The notes under the pieces were generated by a model. It made no database searches and was not told where the DNA came from. It saw only the letters and a program-made list of their open reading frames with translations. Shown in pieces: positions 4,074 to 32,000 of a DNA stretch of 32,000 nt. The position numbers were made by a program, and so were the translations under genes. Positions within the stretch are counted from its first letter, which is position 1; every line of letters starts with the position of its first letter. This DNA is from an uncultured Chloroflexia bacterium (GTDB lineage: Bacteria; Chloroflexota; Ktedonobacteria; Ktedonobacterales; JADMIN01): assembly GCA_963718915.1 (NCBI GenBank), contig CAVRAI010000015.1, positions 570,001 through 602,000 on the forward strand, in the 5' to 3' direction.

Positions 4074-4180
4074 CGCCGTAGCCTGAAGGCCACGGCTAAT
4101 TCCAAAACGGCCGCACCAGCCGCCCGAGCAAAAGAGGGCTGGTGCGGCCAGGATTAGCCGCAGGGCTTTAGCCTGCGGCG
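4074..4180. repeat. Composite REP/MITE-like element: two inverted 30-nt hairpin arms flanking a central 13-bp-stem hairpin
   Basis: Left arm 4074-4103 is CGCCGTAGCCTGAAGGCCACGGCTAATTCC. Right arm 4151-4180 is GGATTAGCCGCAGGGCTTTAGCCTGCGGCG (reverse-complement orientation). Related arms occur at 21715, 21791, 27342 and 28804. Confidence 0.8.
4104..4149 (-). terminator. Rho-independent-type terminator for the methyltransferase gene
   Basis: Perfect 13-bp stem GGCCGCACCAGCC (4109-4121) / GGCTGGTGCGGCC (4137-4149) with a 15-nt loop. On the minus strand it is followed by GTTTTGG (4104-4108 region). Confidence 0.6.
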
Positions 4181-21714: not shown

Positions 21715-21817
21715 CGCCGTAGGCTGAAGACCTACGGCTAATCCCGCCGCGGGCGCGGTCACCTGCCCTTATACACGGCGTTGCGCTTCGGGATTAGCCG
21801 CGGCATTCATGTCGCGG
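21715..21817. repeat. Second composite REP/MITE-like element, splitting the heme cluster between hemD and hemB
   Basis: Left arm 21715-21744 is CGCCGTAGGCTGAAGACCTACGGCTAATCC. Degenerate inverted right arm 21791-21817 is GGATTAGCCGCGGCATTCATGTCGCGG. Confidence 0.7.
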
Positions 21818-26050: not shown

Positions 26051-27208
26051 TTACCTGCTCACCTCGCTGGGCGGCTTTGTGCCGACATAGACGACGCCAT
26101 CGCGCACCTCGACCTGATAGGTCGGCACCGGAGCGCTGGCGACGCCATCCACGACCTTGCCCGTCTCCAGATCGTACTGGGCAAAGTGCCAGGGGCAGGT
26201 GACGATGCACGCGCCGTCGCCGATGGATAGCTCGCCCTCGCTCAGCGGCCCGCGCGCGTGGGAGCAGCGGTTGCCGATGGCGTAGAAACGTCCGCCCGCG
26301 TGGAAGAGCGCCACCTGCTGGCCGTTGAGATAGACCACCCGCGTCGTGCCCTCGGCAATATCCTCGACGGGCGCGACATCTATCCACGCCTCGACGTACT
26401 TCTCGGCCTGGCGCGGCTTCGCGATCTTTGGCCCGCCCAGCGCATCAAGCGTCTCCGCCAGCGTCATGCGAATGCAGCTATAGAGCGGCGTATCGCGCAG
26501 GGTATACATGCTGGACTCAGTATCACGTAGTTCCTGCACCAGATCGAGGAAGTCGGAGGGTTCATCGGTCTCGAAGGCAACCACGAATTCCTGGTCGTCC
26601 AGCCCGAACGAGTAGGTGGTATTCAGCTTGACCGCCGGATATTTGCGGCCAATGCGGATGTGCTCATCCATAACCGCCTGACGCTCTTCCATCGGAAGGC
26701 GATACCAGGGCCGTGTCTTGACGAATGGGTAGACGAAGAGATATTTGGCGTCGCTGGGCGAGATGACCAGCCGCTCGGCATCCTCGTCGGGGTTGTCGCG
26801 AATCTCGTAGATCGAGCGTTTGGTCTGCGAGAGATACGACGAACCCAGGCGCAGGTAGCCGCCGATAGTGGTTGAGAGAATCGCCGTCGCCAGCTCCTGG
26901 ATTGGTTCGAGCGATTCGGCGACCTGCCAGAGCAGCAGTTCGGCGTCGGCGCGGGTGCCCATCAGGCTATATGGCCGCATCAACATCTGGCGATGAAACG
27001 ACTCAATCGTCTCGACCAGTTCCAGCTTCTGCTGCTTCTGGCGCTCGGCGGGCAGACGTCGCCACTGTGGGTCGATGGTGTAGAAGGCGAAACGAACGTA
27101 CTGGCGCTTCGTCGGCTTCGGATGCGCGGCGGGCTTTGGCGCGGCGGCAGGCGCGCTTTGTGATCGTTGAGGCCGCTGGGTTCGTTGGGTGGTGATATTC
27201 TGGGCCAT
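26051..27208 (-). CDS. hemQ: Chlorite-dismutase-family coproheme decarboxylase (HemQ/ChdC) fused to a C-terminal Rieske [2Fe-2S] domain
   Basis: HemQ part: YVRFAFYTIDPQW, YLFVYPFVKTRPWYRLPMEERQAVMDEHIRIG, TYSFGLDDQEFVVAFETDEPSDFLDLV. The last ~116 aa (26054-26401) are NirD-like Rieske: CSH (26258-26266) and CPWH (26186-26197). One continuous frame. Confidence 0.85.
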   Translation of the reverse strand: MAQNITTQRTQRPQRSQSAPAAAPKPAAHPKPTKRQYVRFAFYTIDPQWRRLPAERQKQQKLELVETIESFHRQMLMRPYSLMGTRADAELLLWQVAESLEPIQELATAILSTTIGGYLRLGSSYLSQTKRSIYEIRDNPDEDAERLVISPSDAKYLFVYPFVKTRPWYRLPMEERQAVMDEHIRIGRKYPAVKLNTTYSFGLDDQEFVVAFETDEPSDFLDLVQELRDTESSMYTLRDTPLYSCIRMTLAETLDALGGPKIAKPRQAEKYVEAWIDVAPVEDIAEGTTRVVYLNGQQVALFHAGGRFYAIGNRCSHARGPLSEGELSIGDGACIVTCPWHFAQYDLETGKVVDGVASAPVPTYQVEVRDGVVYVGTKPPSEVSR

Positions 27209-27341: not shown

Positions 27342-27371
27342 CGCCGCAGGCTGAAGCCCTGCGGCTAATCC
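27342..27371 (+). repeat. Solo REP-like hairpin arm
   Basis: CGCCGCAGGCTGAAGCCCTGCGGCTAATCC, lying between the hemQ start and the FHA gene stop. Confidence 0.8.
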
Positions 27372-27380
27372 TTAATCATG

Positions 27381-28040
27381 TTAGAAGCCGCCGAAGACAA
27401 ATAATGTCTGCCCAATCTTAATTTCGTCTTCTTCGTCCAGTACATGCTGACTGATTCGCTGGTCATTGACTATTGTGCCATTGGCGCTGTTCTCGTCGTG
27501 CAACAGATAGCGGCCATTGGGCTGCCGGTTGATGGTGGCGTGTATGCGTGAGACCTGCAAGTCATCAAGGAAGACGTCGCTCTCGCGGCTGCGCCCGATG
27601 GTGATGCGGTCTTTGCGCAGGTCGTAGGAGCGCCCCTGTTCTTTGCCCTCTCTGACCACCAGCTTCGGCTTGCCCCGATTGGACGTCGGCCGCAAGACGT
27701 AGGTGCTTTGGTTGTCGGCATAGGCAGCATTGCCAAAGCCCTTCCAGCTATCGTACGCGCCCGCAGGGGCAGGCGCACCCCAATCCTGATTGGGCGGAGT
27801 CGGCCTGGCGGGTGGATTGTTCCAGTCATTGCCTGCAGCAGGAGCGCTCGTTCCGTCAGCATCATTCAGGGCGCCAACTCGACAGCGGGAGTGCCCCACC
27901 CGGCGGCCGCCTGCGCGGCTGGCGGGCTGCCCCACTGTGGCTGCTGCCCTATGGTATCTGGCGGGCCGCCCCACTGGGGAACAGACCCCTGCTGGTCGCC
28001 CCACCCCCGGCTTGGTGACGGAGGCTGGTCTTCTTCCCAT
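27381..28040 (-). CDS. FHA-domain protein (ORF as it stands; only about 27381-27875 is homologous to the FHA paralog, the N-terminal ~55 codons look out-of-frame)
   Basis: FHA core RITIGRSRESDVFLDDLQVSRIHATINRQPNGRYLLHDENSANGTIVNDQRI. Colinear with the 31006-32000 paralog from AAGNDWNNPP onward. The N-terminal MGRRPASVTKPGVGRPAG.. is Arg-rich junk overlapping the other two frames. Confidence 0.75.
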   Translation of the reverse strand: MGRRPASVTKPGVGRPAGVCSPVGRPARYHRAAATVGQPASRAGGRRVGHSRCRVGALNDADGTSAPAAGNDWNNPPARPTPPNQDWGAPAPAGAYDSWKGFGNAAYADNQSTYVLRPTSNRGKPKLVVREGKEQGRSYDLRKDRITIGRSRESDVFLDDLQVSRIHATINRQPNGRYLLHDENSANGTIVNDQRISQHVLDEEDEIKIGQTLFVFGGF

Positions 28041-28057
28041 TCGTCATCCAATTCCAT
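27866..28057 (-). other. WG-rich linker segment in a third frame (fragment of the disrupted TIR/FHA locus)
   Basis: ELDDEWEEDQPPSPSRGWGDQQGSVPQWGGPPDTIGQQPQWGSPPAAQAAAGWG aligns with GWGEQQGTVPQWGGPPDSMGQQPQWSGQPAAPAPAGWG of the downstream paralog. The underlying DNA (27903-27979 vs 31582-31658) aligns without gaps. Confidence 0.65.
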
Positions 28058-28653
28058 TCGTCATCCAATTCGTCATCCAATTCGTCATCCAATTCGTCAT
28101 CCAATTCGTCATCCAATTCGTCATCCAATTCGTCATCCAATTCGTCATCCAAGTCCTGCTCATCCCAATCAGATTCGATTATTCCGCTTCCTCCACTATC
28201 GGCCTTAGAAGGCGCAAGTGCGGAGTGAGCTACTAAGTTACCGGCTATTTCACCTTGCCGCATTAACCGTTGACGTAATTGTTGCAGACCATGATATTCG
28301 TCAACCTGCATATCTATATATTGTAGCTCCACCAGCAGCATCGGGATCCGCTCTACTTGGTGCAGCAAGACAGGAATAATGGGCTTACCCAATTGTTGCG
28401 AAAAGAACAACTCCCTTCTCACCCAGGGCGAGGCCACAGCCTCGGGCGAGAGGCCAACCACAACGACATCGCTCGTTTGAATAGCGAGCTCGATCTGTGC
28501 CACCCACTTGTCGCCACCCTCCAGATGCGCACGATCAACCCAGGTGCGAAAGCCATAGCTAATCAGTTTCGCCTCCAGTCGATCTATGGTCGTGCTATCG
28601 GCGCGGGCGTAGCTGATGAAGACGCTGATTGGCTGATTCACAGGTGCCACCAT
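27949..28653 (-). CDS. TIR-domain protein with C-terminal (DDEL)8 acidic repeat (ORF as it stands)
   Basis: ISVFISYARADS, GGDKWVAQIELAI, VVVVGLSPEAVASPWVRRELFF (conserved Glu at 28411-28413), GKPIIPVLL: a TIR_2-type layout. SD GGAG upstream of ATG 28653. The tail after DDEW (NWMTNGKKTSLRHQ..) looks like frame run-on. Confidence 0.8.
   Translation of the reverse strand: MVAPVNQPISVFISYARADSTTIDRLEAKLISYGFRTWVDRAHLEGGDKWVAQIELAIQTSDVVVVGLSPEAVASPWVRRELFFSQQLGKPIIPVLLHQVERIPMLLVELQYIDMQVDEYHGLQQLRQRLMRQGEIAGNLVAHSALAPSKADSGGSGIIESDWDEQDLDDELDDELDDELDDELDDELDDELDDELDDEWNWMTNGKKTSLRHQAGGGATSRGLFPSGAARQIP
28040..28152. repeat. Tandem 12-nt repeat TTCGTCATCCAA (minus strand: LDDE), 8 perfect copies, then a 5-nt partial unit and a ninth copy
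   Basis: Units at 28057, 28069, 28081, 28093, 28105, 28117, 28129 and 28141. Orphan TTCCA at 28052-28056. Extra unit at 28040-28051. Confidence 0.95.
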
Positions 28654-28803
28654 ACCATATGCTCCTGCGCGTTCATAGGGGCCGCAAGCGTGCCATCAGT
28701 ATAGCATGGAATTGCTTTAGTTCACAGCCGCTTTATGATGATGGAAACCATAACATTGCCTGCTGTGCTTCAATTTTGCCAGATGCGGGATATGGCGTGT
28801 TCA

Positions 28804-28833
28804 GGCTTAGCCGCAGGGCTTCAGCCTGCGGCG
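28804..28833 (-). repeat. Solo REP-like hairpin arm (inverse orientation)
   Basis: GGCTTAGCCGCAGGGCTTCAGCCTGCGGCG. Its reverse complement matches the 27342 copy except for one base in the TAATCC tail. Confidence 0.8.
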
Positions 28834-29082
28834 CGTGAATCATAGGTATCTGTTTAACCTGTGGGACGACATTGTACTTCCAACCTCACGCCAGCACCGG
28901 CTCGGCCAGCGTCCACAATGCTTCACCGATTCATCTGGCGTAGCAATCCAGGCCATTGCCCACGTTATAAATGACCGATTTTGTGCGGCGCTCTCAGATA
29001 GTACACTGTGTCGCGTGGAGTGCATGAGGGGGCGAGCGCCCCAGCGACGACCATACATAAGTGAAGAAGAAGGAGCAGACAG

Positions 29083-29679
29083 ATGCGCAAGATCGTTGTC
29101 TCAGAGTTTGTGACGCTGGATGGGGTCATGCAGGCGCCGGGCGGCAAGGATGAGGATACCGAGGGTGGGTTCGCCTATGGCGGGTGGACGTGGCCCTATT
29201 GGGACGACGGGATTGGCGCCCACTTTGCCGAGGTGATGAGCGAGAGCGATGCCATGCTCCTGGGGCGCAAGACGTGGCAGATCCACGGCGGCGCCTTCGA
29301 GCCGATGGCGGCGGGCGACCCATTTGGCGACGCAATGAACGCAATGCCGAAGTACGTCGTCTCCACCACCCTGACCGATACCTCGGCCTGGCGGAACTCC
29401 ACCCTCATCAGCGGCAATGTGGCGGAAGAGGTGCGCGCCCTGAAGACGCAGCCGGGCAAGAATATCATCATCGATGGCAGCAGCGTCCTCATCCATACCC
29501 TGGCGCGGAACGACCTGATTGATGAGTACCGCCTGGTCGTCTACCCGCTGGCGCTGGGCGGCGGCAAGAAGGTGTTCCCAGACGGGGTGCGGCTCAACCT
29601 GCGGCTCGTCGAGGCACATTCCCTTCCTTCCGGGGTCGTGCTGACGCATTATACGGTGGAGCGCTCCGCATCGGCGTAG
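29083..29679 (+). CDS. Dihydrofolate reductase family protein (RibD C-terminal domain)
   Basis: MRKIVVSEFVTLDGVMQAPGG, LLGRKTW, PKYVVSTTL, IIIDGSSVLIHTLARNDLIDEYRLVVYPLALGGGKKVF. SD GAAGGAG upstream. Confidence 0.85.
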   Translation: MRKIVVSEFVTLDGVMQAPGGKDEDTEGGFAYGGWTWPYWDDGIGAHFAEVMSESDAMLLGRKTWQIHGGAFEPMAAGDPFGDAMNAMPKYVVSTTLTDTSAWRNSTLISGNVAEEVRALKTQPGKNIIIDGSSVLIHTLARNDLIDEYRLVVYPLALGGGKKVFPDGVRLNLRLVEAHSLPSGVVLTHYTVERSASA

Positions 29680-29721: not shown

Positions 29722-30969
29722 TCACCCAAGTGAGTTGCCACACTTGGTGCAGAAGCGGACTCCTGCCGCATTGCGTGTGCCGCAGCGGCTGCAAGCGCGC
29801 CCGACAACTCCGGTGAGCAGGGAATTGCCGCAGGTGGTGCAGAAGCGGTCGATGGCGCGATTGGGCTGGTGACAGTTGGGGCACGTCACCCACGACTCCG
29901 GGTTACCAGTGGCTGGAGCGGGCTTGCGCGGAACGGAAACCGAGCCAGTGCCCAGGGGTGCGCCACAGGTCGTGCAGAAGCGCTGCTGTGGGGCATTGGG
30001 CGCGCCACACTTCGCGCACGTGACCATCGAGGCAGGCCCGCGCCCGCCAGTGACACGTGGCGCCGGGACGGGAAGCGGCTTCTGGGAGTCCATCGCCTCC
30101 GAGAGCGCCAGCGCCATGTCGGTCGCCTGCTGGAAGCGTTCGGAGGGGTCTTTTTCGAGCGCCTTCATCACGACCGCCTGCACCGCTGGCGAGACGCGCG
30201 GATTACGGGTGGAGGGTAGCGGCGCTGGCTCGTAGATATGCGAGTGCGCCAGCGCGGTGTAGTTGTCGGCCTCGAAGGGGGTATGGCTCGTCAGCATCTC
30301 GTAGAGCATCACGCCGAGCGCATAGATATCGCTGCGCGCGTCCACCATCGCGCCGCGACACTGCTCCGGCGACATGTATTCCGGCGTGCCGACGCCCGCG
30401 CCGGTATGTGTGATGACATTCGAGCTGGCGATCATCTTCGCGATGCCGAAGTCGCTAAGGACGACACGGCGGCTGGCCGTTTCCTTGCCGTTGCCATCCA
30501 CCCGTCGCTGGGTATCCATCAACACATTCACCGGCTTGACATCACGATGGACGATGCCCTGCGCATGCGCATATGAGAGCGCGGAGGCCAGGTCGTGGAT
30601 GATGGGCGGAATATCGGCGAAGGTGAACGGGCGGCTCTCCATGTAATCTTTCAGATTGCCACCAGCGATATATTCCATCGTAATGAACAGGTGGCCCAGT
30701 TCGCGGCCAGCATCATGCACCACGAGGATATTGGGGTGCGTGAGCCGCGCCATCGCCCGCGACTCGATTTTGAAGCGCTCGACGAAGGCAGGATCGGCGG
30801 CATAGTAGGGTGGCAGCACCTTCACAGCGACACGACGGTCGAGGTGCGCCTGATAGGCGCGATAGACCCGGGCCATGCCGCCCTGGCCTATCAACTCCTC
30901 GATCACACAATGGCCGAGCGTCTTGCCAATCAGTTCGTCAACGCCCTGGTCATCAACCTGTTCTGCCAC
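29722..30969 (-). CDS. Hanks-type Ser/Thr protein kinase with three C-terminal zinc-ribbon repeats
   Basis: GQGGMARVY, VAVKVL, HRDVKPVN, SDFGIAK, GTPEYMSPEQ. The C-terminus (29725-30030) has three repeats: CAKCG..FCTTCG, CPNCH..FCTTCG, CSRCG..FCTKCG. No TM segment seen. Confidence 0.9.
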   Translation of the reverse strand: MAEQVDDQGVDELIGKTLGHCVIEELIGQGGMARVYRAYQAHLDRRVAVKVLPPYYAADPAFVERFKIESRAMARLTHPNILVVHDAGRELGHLFITMEYIAGGNLKDYMESRPFTFADIPPIIHDLASALSYAHAQGIVHRDVKPVNVLMDTQRRVDGNGKETASRRVVLSDFGIAKMIASSNVITHTGAGVGTPEYMSPEQCRGAMVDARSDIYALGVMLYEMLTSHTPFEADNYTALAHSHIYEPAPLPSTRNPRVSPAVQAVVMKALEKDPSERFQQATDMALALSEAMDSQKPLPVPAPRVTGGRGPASMVTCAKCGAPNAPQQRFCTTCGAPLGTGSVSVPRKPAPATGNPESWVTCPNCHQPNRAIDRFCTTCGNSLLTGVVGRACSRCGTRNAAGVRFCTKCGNSLG

Positions 30970-31005: not shown

Positions 31006-32000
31006 CTAGCGGTAGACGAAGACCAGCAACGTCTGGCCCACCTGGATCTTGTCGCCGTCCTCCAGCATGTGCTCGGAGACGCGCTGGCCATTGACGAGCG
31101 TGCCGTTCGCGCTCTGCTCGTCACGCAGCAGATAGCGGCCATTCTGCTGCCGGTTGATCGTCGTGTGGGTGCGCGAGACGGCCAGGTCTTCGAGGAAGAC
31201 ATCGCTCTCGCGGCTGCGCCCGATGGTGATGCGGTCTTTGCGCACGTCGTAGGAGCGGCCCTGTTCTTTGCCTTCCTGCACGACCAGTTTCGGCTCGCCC
31301 TGCCCCGTCTGTGGCCGCACGACATAGGTGCGCTGGTCCTCGGTGTAGGCGCCATTGCCATAGCCCTGCTGACCGCTGTACGCGCCAGCTGGAGCAGCGG
31401 CGCCCCAATCCTGACTGGGAGCAGTCGGGCTGGCGGGCGGATTGTTCCAGTTGGGGGCGCCCTGCGGCGCGGGCTGATCCCAGGCCTGTTGTGGCGCGGG
31501 CTGCTGGTTCCACCCCTGTTGCGGGTCTGGTGGACGTTGATTCCAGTCGCTGCCCGCGGCGGGAGCGCCCCCGCCCCACCCGGCAGGCGCCGGTGCGGCT
31601 GGCTGACCGCTCCATTGTGGCTGCTGGCCCATACTATCTGGCGGGCCGCCCCACTGGGGAACGGTACCCTGCTGCTCGCCCCATCCCTGGCCTGATGGTG
31701 GTCCCCATCCGCCTGGAGCGCTACCACGTCCAGCGTTCGCCGCGGCTGGCGCGCCCTGATTCCCGTAGGATGCCCAGTCGCTAGAGGCGGCCGGTCCGGC
31801 ATTCGGACGGCTCGCGGGGCCACTGTAGTCCTCGCCCCAGCCGCCGCCTGGACGCGAACGGCCGGGCTGGCTCACAGGCGCGCGCGACTGGCCGTATGGC
31901 CCCTGATTCGCATCGTAGCCAATGCCGCGCGATGTCTTTTTCGCGTCACCATTGCTGCGCAGCACCATCACGAACACCAGAAGGATCGCGATGATGACGA
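31006..32000 (-). CDS. FHA-domain protein with N-terminal TM anchor and long W/G/Q/P-rich linker, 5'-partial (runs off the right edge)
   Basis: The frame stays open to nt 32000 (..VIIAILLVFVMVLRSNGD = TM helix). FHA core RITIGRSRESDVFLEDLAVSRTHTTINRQQNGRYLLRDEQSANGTLVNGQRV. Stop is 36 nt upstream of the kinase start. Confidence 0.85.
   Translation of the reverse strand, partial: VIIAILLVFVMVLRSNGDAKKTSRGIGYDANQGPYGQSRAPVSQPGRSRPGGGWGEDYSGPASRPNAGPAASSDWASYGNQGAPAAANAGRGSAPGGWGPPSGQGWGEQQGTVPQWGGPPDSMGQQPQWSGQPAAPAPAGWGGGAPAAGSDWNQRPPDPQQGWNQQPAPQQAWDQPAPQGAPNWNNPPASPTAPSQDWGAAAPAGAYSGQQGYGNGAYTEDQRTYVVRPQTGQGEPKLVVQEGKEQGRSYDVRKDRITIGRSRESDVFLEDLAVSRTHTTINRQQNGRYLLRDEQSANGTLVNGQRVSEHMLEDGDKIQVGQTLLVFVYR

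What the first reader, a model, noticed from the sequence alone, without database searches (positions are those of the whole stretch)
27381..28653. TIR domain, acidic (DDEL)n repeat, WG-rich linker and FHA domain are colinear but split over three reading frames
Reading the minus strand from ATG 28653:
- Frame X gives a TIR domain (conserved Glu in SPWVRRELFF), eight perfect DDEL units, then DDEW and an uncharacteristic tail to stop 27949.
- Frame Y (-1 from X) opens inside the repeat. It reads ELDDEWEEDQPPSPSRGWGDQQGSVPQWGGPPDTIGQQPQWGSPPAAQAAAGWGTPAVELAP*, which matches the linker of the FHA paralog at 31006-32000.
- Frame Z (a further -1) continues that colinearity (AAGNDWNNPP..QDWGAPAPAGAY..KPKLVVREGKEQGRSYDLRKDRITIGRSRESDVFL) into a complete FHA domain ending at 27381.

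One extra G at the GG of 28056/28057 (tgg-aa-ttg to tgg gaa ttg), plus one nucleotide near 27868-27876, would restore a single ~424-aa TIR-acidic repeat-linker-FHA protein. Between GWG and DW the locus has 65 nt where the paralog has 24. The difference is not a multiple of 3, so the break is visible at DNA level.

I do not recognise TIR-FHA as a described domain architecture.
Basis: partly seen in the sequence, partly recalled or inferred. Interest (0 to 1): 0.8.

Follow-up and report, generated by a model that had tools for sequence, protein, structure and literature searches.

The report
Disrupted chimeric TIR–FHA gene
A soil Ktedonobacterales genome carries a lineage-specific gene that once joined an NAD-cleaving TIR effector domain to a phospho-threonine-binding FHA domain, but two small insertions (17 and 47 bases) now split it over three reading frames, so it is most likely a recently broken gene and not a new kind of system.

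Summary
On the minus strand, a TIR ORF (28653-27949), a WG-rich linker ORF (28057-27866) and an FHA ORF (28040-27381) are colinear in three frames. The breaks are not best explained by single-base losses. One is a perfect 17-bp tandem duplication at the end of a 12-bp (DDEL) repeat. The other is a 47-nt insertion in the linker. Removing exactly these two restores one 402-aa ORF whose junction (AGWG|APAAGNDWN) matches intact relatives. The whole ~1.6-kb segment is missing from the same site in two related genomes. Its FHA half is a diverged copy of the membrane-anchored FHA gene 3.6 kb away. Its TIR half, with promoter and leader, belongs to a multi-copy Ktedonobacterales TIR family. No full-length homologue of this chimera was found. 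TIR+FHA proteins do exist intact elsewhere: 16 of the 150 best representative clusters, mostly soil Chloroflexota. The searchable literature does not name the combination. Most likely this is a young, lineage-specific TIR–FHA fusion that has recently been inactivated, or reduced to a TIR-only product. Reads were not available, so an assembly artefact cannot be excluded. Interest is modest.

The parts
27373..28970 (-). Lineage-specific ~1.6-kb segment inserted in the divergent intergenic region between the RibD_C-like gene (29083-29679, +) and hemQ-Rieske (27208-26051, -)
   Evidence: blastn and global alignment to L002 (87-89% identical flanks) leave 28970-27373 unmatched. L001, a more distant relative, also has an empty site. 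All nine loci L002-L010 have only ~230-280 bp between these genes. GC is 47-57% against 62-66% in the flanks.
28800..28833 (-). Upstream REP-like hairpin (arm of the 34-nt inverted repeat flanking the locus)
   Evidence: the repeat finder pair I1 is 94% complementary. The core is one of 4 copies in the window, with 0 expected by chance. It folds at -19.5 kcal/mol.
28654..28760 (-). Conserved promoter/5' leader of the TIR family (TGCTATACTG ... GCAGGAG ... ATG)
   Evidence: It aligns with the leaders of the TIR paralogs in L001 and L012/L013, although synonymous sites of the coding parts are saturated. AGGAG lies before the ATG.
27949..28653 (-). Frame X ORF, 234 aa: TIR domain, short family-type helix, acidic repeat, then a 34-aa out-of-frame tail
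28276..28623 (-). TIR_2 domain (aa 11-126), with catalytic-type Glu81 at 28413-28411
   Evidence: Pfam PF13676, E=6e-25. Aligned to TLR and bacterial TIR structures. dN/dS versus paralogs is about 0.03.
28056..28152 (-). Perfect 12-bp coding repeat GATGACGAATTG (DDEL x7, then DDEW)
   Evidence: TRF gives 8.1 copies at 100% match. Unit count.
28037..28070 (-). First frame break: perfect 17-bp tandem duplication AATTGGATGACGAATGG x2 (copies 28070-28054 and 28053-28037)
   Evidence: TRF period 17, 2.1 copies, 100%. Deleting one copy joins frame X to frame Y as ...DDELDDEWEEDQPPSPSRGWG.
27866..28057 (-). Frame Y ORF, 63 aa: WG-rich linker homologous to the linker of the membrane-anchored FHA protein
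27846..27892 (-). Second frame break: 47-nt insertion ACTCCCGCTGTCGAGTTGGCGCCCTGAATGATGCTGACGGAACGAGC carrying the frame-Y stop TGA
   Evidence: Absent from the paralog and from L002. No source was found in the window or loci. Its removal together with the 17-bp copy gives one 402-aa ORF with the junction AGWG|APAAGNDWN, as in P0003.
27381..28040 (-). Frame Z ORF, 219 aa. Only the part downstream of ~27845 is homologous to FHA proteins. The source genome's gene call (P0064, 184 aa) starts at GTG 27935.
   Evidence: No SD-like site lies before any in-frame start.
27411..27605 (-). FHA domain. The pThr-binding motifs are retained: GR (27596-), SR.H (27554-27540), NGT (27488-27474).
   Evidence: Pfam PF00498, E=9e-20. 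Aligned to GarA/OdhI. Coordinates.
27342..27375 (-). Downstream REP-like hairpin, 6 nt after the FHA stop codon (other arm of the inverted repeat)
31006..32000 (-). Intact paralog: membrane-anchored, WG-rich-linker FHA protein (P0001, 360 aa; its start lies beyond the window). It is the first gene before the Ser/Thr kinase at 30969-29722.

Best explanation
This is a real, lineage-specific chimeric gene that has recently been broken.

Origin (inferred). In an ancestor of this Ktedonobacterales genome, the promoter, leader and TIR domain of a multi-copy TIR family were joined to the 3' two-thirds (WG-rich linker plus FHA domain, without the membrane anchor) of a gene of the membrane-anchored FHA family. 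That family normally has the layout TIR / helical TPR-like region / WD40, zinc-ribbon, PQQ or FHA. The FHA family sits in the neighbouring Ser/Thr-kinase operon. The join runs through a short acidic segment that later expanded into a perfect (DDEL)n repeat. The segment lies between two inverted REP-like hairpins in the ribD_C-hemQ intergenic region.

Intact form (inferred). The 402-aa product would have been a TIR NAD-cleaving effector tethered by a disordered linker to a pThr-binding FHA module. That is an effector recruited or gated by Ser/Thr-kinase signalling. The same domain combination is kept intact in other Chloroflexota.

Present state. Two insertions have split the gene: a 17-bp tandem duplication at the end of the repeat and a 47-nt insertion in the linker. 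Only a 234-aa TIR-plus-acidic-tail product has normal translation signals. The FHA part is probably untranslated.

Shown versus inferred:
- Shown: the anatomy, the two insertions, the absence from related genomes, the origin of each half, and past purifying selection.
- Inferred: NADase activity, pThr gating, and present non-function.
For: 1. Both breaks coincide with discrete insertions. Deleting exactly these restores a 1209-nt ORF with an orthologue-like junction.
2. The assembly is otherwise indel-clean. Nine neighbouring genes align end to end in one frame with L002 orthologues over about 12 kb.
3. The segment is absent at the same site in L002-L010 and in L001.
4. The TIR half is 70-76% identical to family members P0006, P0008, P0013 and P0015. 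Its dN/dS is about 0.03 and it shares their 5' leader.
5. The FHA half is homologous to the TM-FHA gene. It has 64 lineage-specific substitutions, against 12 and 9 in the two orthologues, and they are GC-to-AT biased (41 versus 12). Even so, dN/dS is about 0.3, significantly below 1 (binomial p=6e-5), and the pThr-binding motifs are kept. It therefore functioned for most of its separate history.
6. There is no SD-like site before any frame-Z start. AGGAG lies before the TIR start.
7. Intact TIR+FHA proteins exist, so the combination is viable. Some carry FHA domains of this same subfamily: P0070, P0075, P0157, P0194, P0111.
8. A second member of the family (the P0008 locus) is split between its TIR-helical part and its WD40 part by a 1-nt insertion. 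The split is identical in three independent assemblies. Real disruption therefore occurs in this family.
Against: - No reads or second assembly of this genome could be examined.
- The perfect 17-bp duplication and the perfect 12-bp array are very young. The state could be a minority variant captured by the assembler.
- dN/dS of about 0.3 does not show when constraint stopped. Part of the divergence may have accrued in a donor lineage before the fusion.
- Leaderless or SD-independent translation of the FHA ORF cannot be excluded.
- NADase activity and pThr binding are inferred from motifs only.
Confidence: 0.6

Rival explanations
1. Assembly or sequencing artefact. The real gene is intact. It is either 402 aa (neither insertion is real) or about 424 aa (in-frame 18-bp and 48-nt insertions with two single-base undercalls).
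For: - Both frames can be restored by one extra base in a short homopolymer.
- The first break lies inside a tandem-repeat array, where assemblers and long reads are least reliable.
- The FHA part keeps its key motifs and has dN/dS below 1.
Against: - Nine neighbouring genes show no frame error over about 12 kb, so two errors within 190 nt would be a marked local excess.
- The homopolymers are only 2-3 bases long.
- The artefact model needs each single-base loss to fall exactly at a novel multi-base insertion. The insertions alone (17 and 47 nt) already explain the frames.
Confidence: 0.12
2. Functional split. The locus now works as two genes: a TIR-acidic-tail protein and a separately translated soluble FHA protein, as in the source genome's own gene call P0064.
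For: - Gene prediction on the source contig calls a 184-aa FHA protein.
- The FHA domain motifs are intact.
- The TIR ORF has its own promoter-like leader and SD.
- The P0008 locus shows another TIR | sensor split that persists in three assemblies.
Against: - None of the 7 in-frame starts has an SD-like site.
- The N-terminal 30-90 residues of any such product would be out-of-frame linker sequence.
- No orthologous separate genes exist anywhere.
- Frame Y ends in a stop inside a non-homologous 47-nt insert, which looks like damage and not design.
Confidence: 0.17
3. Programmed recoding or phase variation. Two -1 ribosomal frameshifts, or reversible slippage in the repeat, produce the full TIR–FHA protein conditionally.
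For: - Both shifts are -1, and the first lies beside a slippage-prone perfect repeat.
- Short tandem duplications can revert.
Against: - There is no X_XXY_YYZ slippery heptamer in either overlap window, in any frame.
- No Rfam element was found.
- Changes in 12-bp unit number keep the frame.
- The 47-nt insert is not a repeat and cannot revert by slippage.
- Intact relatives need no recoding.
Confidence: 0.03

Closest known systems
Ktedonobacterales TIR / helical(TPR-like) / variable C-terminus family (P0006 TIR-helical-Zn-ribbon; P0008 and P0013-P0017 TIR-(helical)-WD40; P0024 TIR-PQQ propeller; P0070 and P0075 TIR-helical-FHA)
   Same: - The N-terminal TIR_2 domain is 62-76% identical.
- It has the same SPWV..EL motif and the same helix after the domain.
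- It shares the conserved 5' leader.
- It shares the low GC3.

   Different: - The helical TPR-like region is missing. Homology to the family ends near aa 140-160. It is replaced by a (DDEL)n repeat and a WG-rich linker.
- The gene is interrupted.
Intact TIR+FHA proteins in public metagenomes and genomes: TIR-linker-FHA (P0157, P0194), FHA-FHA-TIR (P0092 cluster, including NCBI HEX3054168.1, Aggregatilineaceae), TIR-FHA-FHA (P0101, P0120), TM-WG-linker-FHA-x-TIR (P0111)
   Same: - The same two Pfam domains occur in one polypeptide.
- Several carry an FHA domain of the same subfamily (…GRSRESDIFLEDLAVSR.H…DENSANGT…).

   Different: - They are at most 30-50% identical to the locus.
- They have different linkers, and often a different domain order or number.
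- None is a full-length homologue, so the fusions look independent.
- None is experimentally studied as far as the library shows.
Membrane-anchored WG-rich FHA protein of the conserved STK-FHA / TM-FHA / STK-Zn-ribbon operon (P0001-P0005; window 31006 to beyond 32000)
   Same: The linker and FHA domain of the locus are homologous to it at the DNA level (79-86%). The order of linker motifs is the same.
   Different: - The locus copy lacks the N-terminal transmembrane segment and the first ~130 residues.
- It lacks the DWNQRPP…APNWN block.
- It has evolved 5-7 times faster, with changes at positions invariant in all orthologues.
TIR-effector conflict / programmed-cell-death systems of multicellular bacteria (Kaur, Burroughs, Iyer, Aravind; eLife 2020 PMC7159879 and 2021 PMC8195603)
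   Same: A TIR effector is joined to variable repeat or adaptor domains in filamentous bacteria with large genomes. Those papers list FHA and S/T kinases among the domains that occur sporadically in such systems.
   Different: - No STAND/NACHT NTPase, vWA-MoxR or other core component lies next to this locus.
- It sits in a haem-biosynthesis cluster.
- The papers do not describe a direct TIR–FHA fusion in the passages found.
Thoeris ThsB and other defence-system TIR proteins (PADLOC models)
   Same: The TIR domain gives weak to moderate matches: Aga_TIR-PNTD E=5e-16, SAVED_TIR E=7e-13, ThsB E=2.5e-6.
   Different: The matches cover the TIR domain only. No ThsA, SAVED, Argonaute or other partner gene is present in the window.

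Membership tests
TIR domain proteins (Pfam PF13676 TIR_2) | Significant match to the family profile over the whole domain | tested here: met
   E=5.7e-25, 88.6 bits against a cut-off of 28, profile positions 1-121 of 122
TIR domain proteins (NADase-competent subset) | Conserved glutamate in the W..E motif after the betaC strand | tested here: met
   E81 in SPWVRRELFF aligns with the W..EL of TLR and bacterial TIR structures. It is invariant in the family alignment. Enzyme activity itself was not tested.
TIR domain proteins (NADase-competent subset) | NAD+ cleavage on oligomerisation | not testable with these tools
   Needs a biochemical assay.
FHA domain proteins (Pfam PF00498) | Significant profile match, plus the Gly-Arg, Ser-x-x-His and Asn-Gly motifs that contact pThr | tested here: met
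   E=9e-20, full profile 1-67. GRSRES, VSRIH and SANGT align with GarA/OdhI.
Ktedonobacterales TIR-helical-X family | TPR-like helical region (…DLNDLF.QG…LLRQVVERD..FGNG…) after the TIR domain | tested here: not met
   Alignment and blastn homology stop near aa 127-160. The helical region is absent.
Pseudogene / disrupted gene | Frame-disrupting changes relative to intact homologues, with colinear homology continuing in other frames | tested here: met
   17-bp duplication and 47-nt insertion. tblastn of the L002 FHA protein hits frames -2 and -1 in succession.
Pseudogene / disrupted gene | The sequence as assembled is what is in the cell | not testable with these tools
   No reads. Only indirect evidence: the neighbouring genes are frame-clean.
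Programmed -1 ribosomal frameshift | Slippery heptamer X_XXY_YYZ in the overlap of the two frames | tested here: not met
   None in either overlap window, in any frame.
Thoeris (ThsA/ThsB) defence system | A ThsB-type TIR gene adjacent to a ThsA (SIR2/Macro-SLOG) gene | tested here: not met
   Only a weak ThsB TIR-domain match. The neighbours are haem-biosynthesis, RibD_C and kinase genes.
REP-like (repetitive extragenic palindrome) elements | A short palindromic sequence repeated in intergenic regions of one genome | tested here: met
   4 copies in 32 kb, 0 expected, all intergenic. One copy has compensatory stem changes. Hairpins fold at -18 to -20 kcal/mol. Association with a RAYT transposase was not tested.

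The most novel reading that the evidence does not exclude
The locus may be a snapshot of how Chloroflexota build, and lose, an undescribed class of phospho-threonine-gated TIR effectors.

In this reading, a promoter-bearing TIR cassette, here bracketed by inverted REP-like hairpins, lands next to the conserved Ser/Thr-kinase/FHA operon. It then captures a copy of the 3' part of a neighbouring signalling gene. Here that is the FHA linker and domain. In the related MAG contig L001 it is the zinc-ribbon tail of the kinase.

The many intact TIR+FHA proteins would then be functional outcomes of the same process. They would wire NAD+ depletion to kinase signalling.
Probability: 0.15. Interest if true: 0.6.

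Novelty: new variant of a known kind. Interest (0 to 1): 0.3.

Why it matters
The locus itself probably matters little, because it looks like a young gene that has already been disabled. It points to two things worth knowing.

1. TIR+FHA proteins are recurrent and intact in soil Chloroflexota, in several domain orders. The searchable literature does not name them. They suggest a direct link between Ser/Thr-kinase (pThr) signalling and TIR NAD-consuming effectors that could be tested biochemically.

2. Two related genomes each have a TIR gene beside the same kinase/FHA operon, fused to a ~20%-diverged copy of a neighbour's C-terminal domain. This is a concrete example of domain shuffling by partial gene duplication in bacteria with large, paralog-rich genomes.

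For annotation, the case shows that three 'hypothetical / FHA / TIR' ORFs should be read as one disrupted gene.

Tried and rejected
- Exact look-ups of the TIR ORF, P0001, the window kinase and P0015 for encoding contigs all returned 'not on record'. The source 1.04-Mb contig could not be fetched.
- The genome-contig scan found only a 76%-identical TIR (L001). The metagenome-contig scan found only a 29% hit (L011). No second copy of the chimera exists in those collections.
- A second word-indexed protein search with the TIR part alone returned only two distant hits. It did not even recover P0006, so it adds nothing.
- Programmed frameshifting was rejected: no slippery heptamer and no Rfam hit.
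- The consensus promoter/terminator scan found nothing relevant on the minus strand.
- The origin of the 47-nt insert was sought in the window and all loci. Only chance 9-12-mers were found.
- I considered a simple recent duplication of the adjacent FHA gene and hedged it. dS to the neighbour is about 0.6-0.7, against 0.23 between the orthologues. The copy is therefore either older than the split from the L002 species, or imported from a relative, or accelerated by relaxed codon selection. TIR-family genes everywhere have low GC3.
- I considered membership of Thoeris or another defence system and rejected it. Only the TIR domain matches and there are no partner genes.
- Structure prediction was not run. 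It would not separate the hypotheses.
Full report
**1. What is in the sequence**

- ATG 28653 opens a 234-aa ORF, frame X, with its stop at 27949.
- A 63-aa ORF in the -1 frame, frame Y, runs 28057-27866.
- A 219-aa ORF one further frame back, frame Z, runs 28040-27381.

Pfam finds TIR_2 at residues 11-126 (E=6e-25) and a complete FHA domain (E about 1e-19). The Glu of SPWVRRELFF is E81. It aligns with the W..E motif of solved TIR domains. The FHA part keeps the GR, SR.H and NGT motifs that align with GarA/OdhI.

The acidic repeat is a perfect 12-bp array, 8.1 copies at 28056-28152. It encodes DDEL seven times and then DDEW.

**2. What the two frame breaks are**

The first break is a perfect 17-bp tandem duplication, AATTGGATGACGAATGG x2, at 28070-28037, at the 3' end of the array. 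Deleting one copy reads ...DDELDDEWEEDQPPSPSRGWGDQQ... straight into frame Y.

The second break is a 47-nt insertion. I aligned the locus with the paralog (31006 to beyond 32000) and with its orthologue in locus L002. The locus carries 47 extra nucleotides at 27892-27846, directly after GGGTGGGGC. These hold the frame-Y stop.

Removing the 17-bp copy and these 47 nt yields one ORF of 1209 nt (402 aa). Its junction, AGWG|APAAGNDWN, is that of intact relatives such as P0003.

It would make the insertions in-frame (18 and 48 nt; about 424 aa). But it needs a single-base loss exactly at each novel insertion.

The assembly is otherwise clean. Nine neighbouring genes align end to end in a single frame with their L002 orthologues. 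There is no slippery heptamer in either overlap and no Rfam match.

**3. Where it sits and where it came from**

Source genome:
- The window's kinase, the FHA paralog (P0001) and the FHA-piece gene call (P0064) all map to one 1,044,980-bp contig from NCBI/ENA.
- The nearest named relatives are Ktedonobacterales MAGs.

Synteny:
- Nine soil-metagenome contigs (L002-L010) carry a kinase clustered with the window's at 90% identity or more.
- They show the conserved order: STK-FHA, TM-FHA, STK-Zn-ribbon, RibD_C (opposite strand), hemQ-Rieske, hemH, hemA/C/D/B/E.
- Only 230-280 bp separate RibD_C and hemQ.
- Against L002, window 28970-27373 is unmatched.
- The more distant L001 also lacks it there.

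So the ~1.6-kb segment is an insertion in this lineage, inside a haem-biosynthesis neighbourhood. There is no transposase and no defence island. The segment has lower GC than its flanks. A 34-nt inverted repeat brackets it, at 27342-27375 and 28800-28833.

**4. The two halves**

TIR half:
- It is 62-76% identical to a family of Ktedonobacterales proteins. These have a TIR domain, a TPR-like helical region and a variable C-terminus: zinc ribbons, WD40, PQQ propeller.
- Against two paralogs, dN is 0.13 while dS is saturated, so omega is about 0.03.
- About 60-100 nt of 5' leader are conserved (TGCTATACTG … GCAGGAG … ATG).
- Homology to the family ends around residue 127-160. The helical region is absent.

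FHA half:
- It is homologous to the membrane-anchored, WG-rich FHA gene of the adjacent operon: linker 86%, domain 79% to L002, against 88.7% for the true orthologue.
- It lacks the transmembrane N-terminus.
- It branches at the base of that orthologue clade on a long branch.
- It has 64 private substitutions, against 12 and 9 in the orthologues. These are strongly GC-to-AT biased, 41 versus 12.
- Its dN/dS is about 0.3, significantly below 1 (p=6e-5).
- TIR-family genes have low GC3 in every genome examined. The drift therefore fits long residence in that gene context as well as it fits decay.
- The FHA part was under selection for most of its separate history.
- None of its seven possible in-frame starts has an SD-like site. 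The TIR start has AGGAG.

Together these points argue for a once-intact fusion.

**5. Is TIR+FHA new?**

No full-length homologue of this chimera was found in any of three searches:
- the 5.8-billion-cluster search;
- the JGI metagenome scan;
- the exhaustive search of 1.84 billion representatives.

However, 16 of the 150 best representatives in that last search contain both domains.
- FHA-FHA-TIR: eight clusters. The P0092 cluster includes NCBI HEX3054168.1 from Aggregatilineaceae. P0208, a member of that cluster, lies in genome assembly GCA_964472565.1.
- TIR-FHA-FHA: P0101 and P0120.
- TIR-helical-FHA of the same family as the locus: P0070 and P0075.
- Simple TIR-linker-FHA: P0157, seen on four contigs, and P0194.
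- TM-WG-linker-FHA-x-TIR: P0111.

Several use an FHA domain of the same subfamily as the locus. No paper in the library contains 'TIR-FHA' or 'FHA-TIR'. The Aravind-group papers list TIR and FHA among the effector and adaptor domains of conflict systems in multicellular bacteria. The passages found do not describe this fusion.

PADLOC models match only the TIR domain.

**6. Interpretation**

The best-supported reading (about 0.6) is a young, lineage-specific TIR–FHA fusion, recently disrupted by two insertions.
- In its intact form it would plausibly have tethered a TIR NAD-consuming effector to pThr marks made by the neighbouring kinases. This is inference from domain functions established elsewhere.
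- It now most likely yields a 234-aa TIR/acidic-tail protein at most.

Rivals:
- an assembly artefact (0.12);
- a functional split into separate TIR and FHA genes (0.17);
- recoding or phase variation (0.03).

Reads or an amplicon across 27830-28170 would decide between them.

**7. Verdict**

- The thing is a new, and broken, variant of a known kind. That kind is bacterial TIR effectors with swappable C-terminal signalling domains.
- Interest is about 0.3. Most of it lies in the wider, unstudied TIR+FHA protein set and in the apparent capture of neighbours' 3' domains, not in this locus.

Noticed in passing
window 4154-4180 (+), 21715-21741 (-), 27342-27368 (-), 28807-28833 (+): A dispersed REP-like hairpin, TTAGCCGCAGGGCTTCAGCCTGCGGCG, occurs 4 times in 32 kb (0 expected). 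All copies are intergenic. The 21715 copy has compensatory stem changes (GCCGTAGG…CCTACGGC). There is no exact copy in the related loci L001-L010. L002 has only the half-site GGATTAGCCGCAG at the empty insertion site, and L001 has a diverged copy upstream of its TIR gene.
   Followed up: partly
L001 (JAICKD010000104.1) 1-2508: In this related MAG a TIR-helical-zinc-ribbon gene (P0006, 427-1719) sits in the same neighbourhood but in the other gap, between the kinase and RibD_C. Its zinc-ribbon tail is a 77-80% DNA copy (64% aa) of the adjacent kinase's own tail. This parallels the captured FHA part in the window.
   Followed up: partly
L012 6001-8011; L013 3541-5551; L014 173-2183: Another family member is split. 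P0008 (TIR-helical, 365 aa) is followed by an overlapping +1-frame ORF of 314 aa made of six WD40 repeats. One extra T (GCTGCT|T|GGGTCG) explains it. The 2011-nt region is identical in three independent assemblies: an NCBI MAG, a JGI metagenome and a Logan assembly.
   Followed up: partly
window 28654-28760 (-); L001 300-426; L013 3414-3540: The 5' leader of the TIR paralogs (TGCTATACTG … CGCTT.C … CT.TGAA … GCAGGAG) is conserved, although synonymous sites of the coding regions are saturated. This suggests a constrained promoter or regulatory leader. There is no Rfam match.
   Followed up: partly
window 26051-27208 (-): HemQ (chlorite-dismutase-like) is fused to a C-terminal Rieske [2Fe-2S] domain in one 385-aa protein. 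The fusion is conserved in all related loci (392 aa) and sits at the head of the haem cluster.
   Followed up: no
window 29722-30969 (-): The Ser/Thr kinase has a C-terminal tail of three zinc ribbons and no recognisable membrane or sensor domain. It is clustered at 90% identity or more with kinases on many soil-metagenome contigs (54 cluster members).
   Followed up: no
L020 259-8732: An intact TIR-FHA-FHA protein (P0120) lies about 3 kb upstream of three tandem TIR–FGE-sulfatase (FGS) paralogs on a 16-kb contig.
   Followed up: no
L018 2426-4825 and 8001-9110 (GCA_964472565.1): Two different TIR+FHA proteins lie within 6 kb of each other: a 799-aa one and the 369-aa FHA-FHA-TIR. Response-regulator and vWA genes are nearby.
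   Followed up: no
window TIR/FHA locus; L001, L013, L015, L016 TIR genes: TIR-family genes have markedly lower GC3 (0.54-0.63) than housekeeping neighbours (about 0.8) in every genome looked at. This is a family-wide compositional trait.
   Followed up: partly
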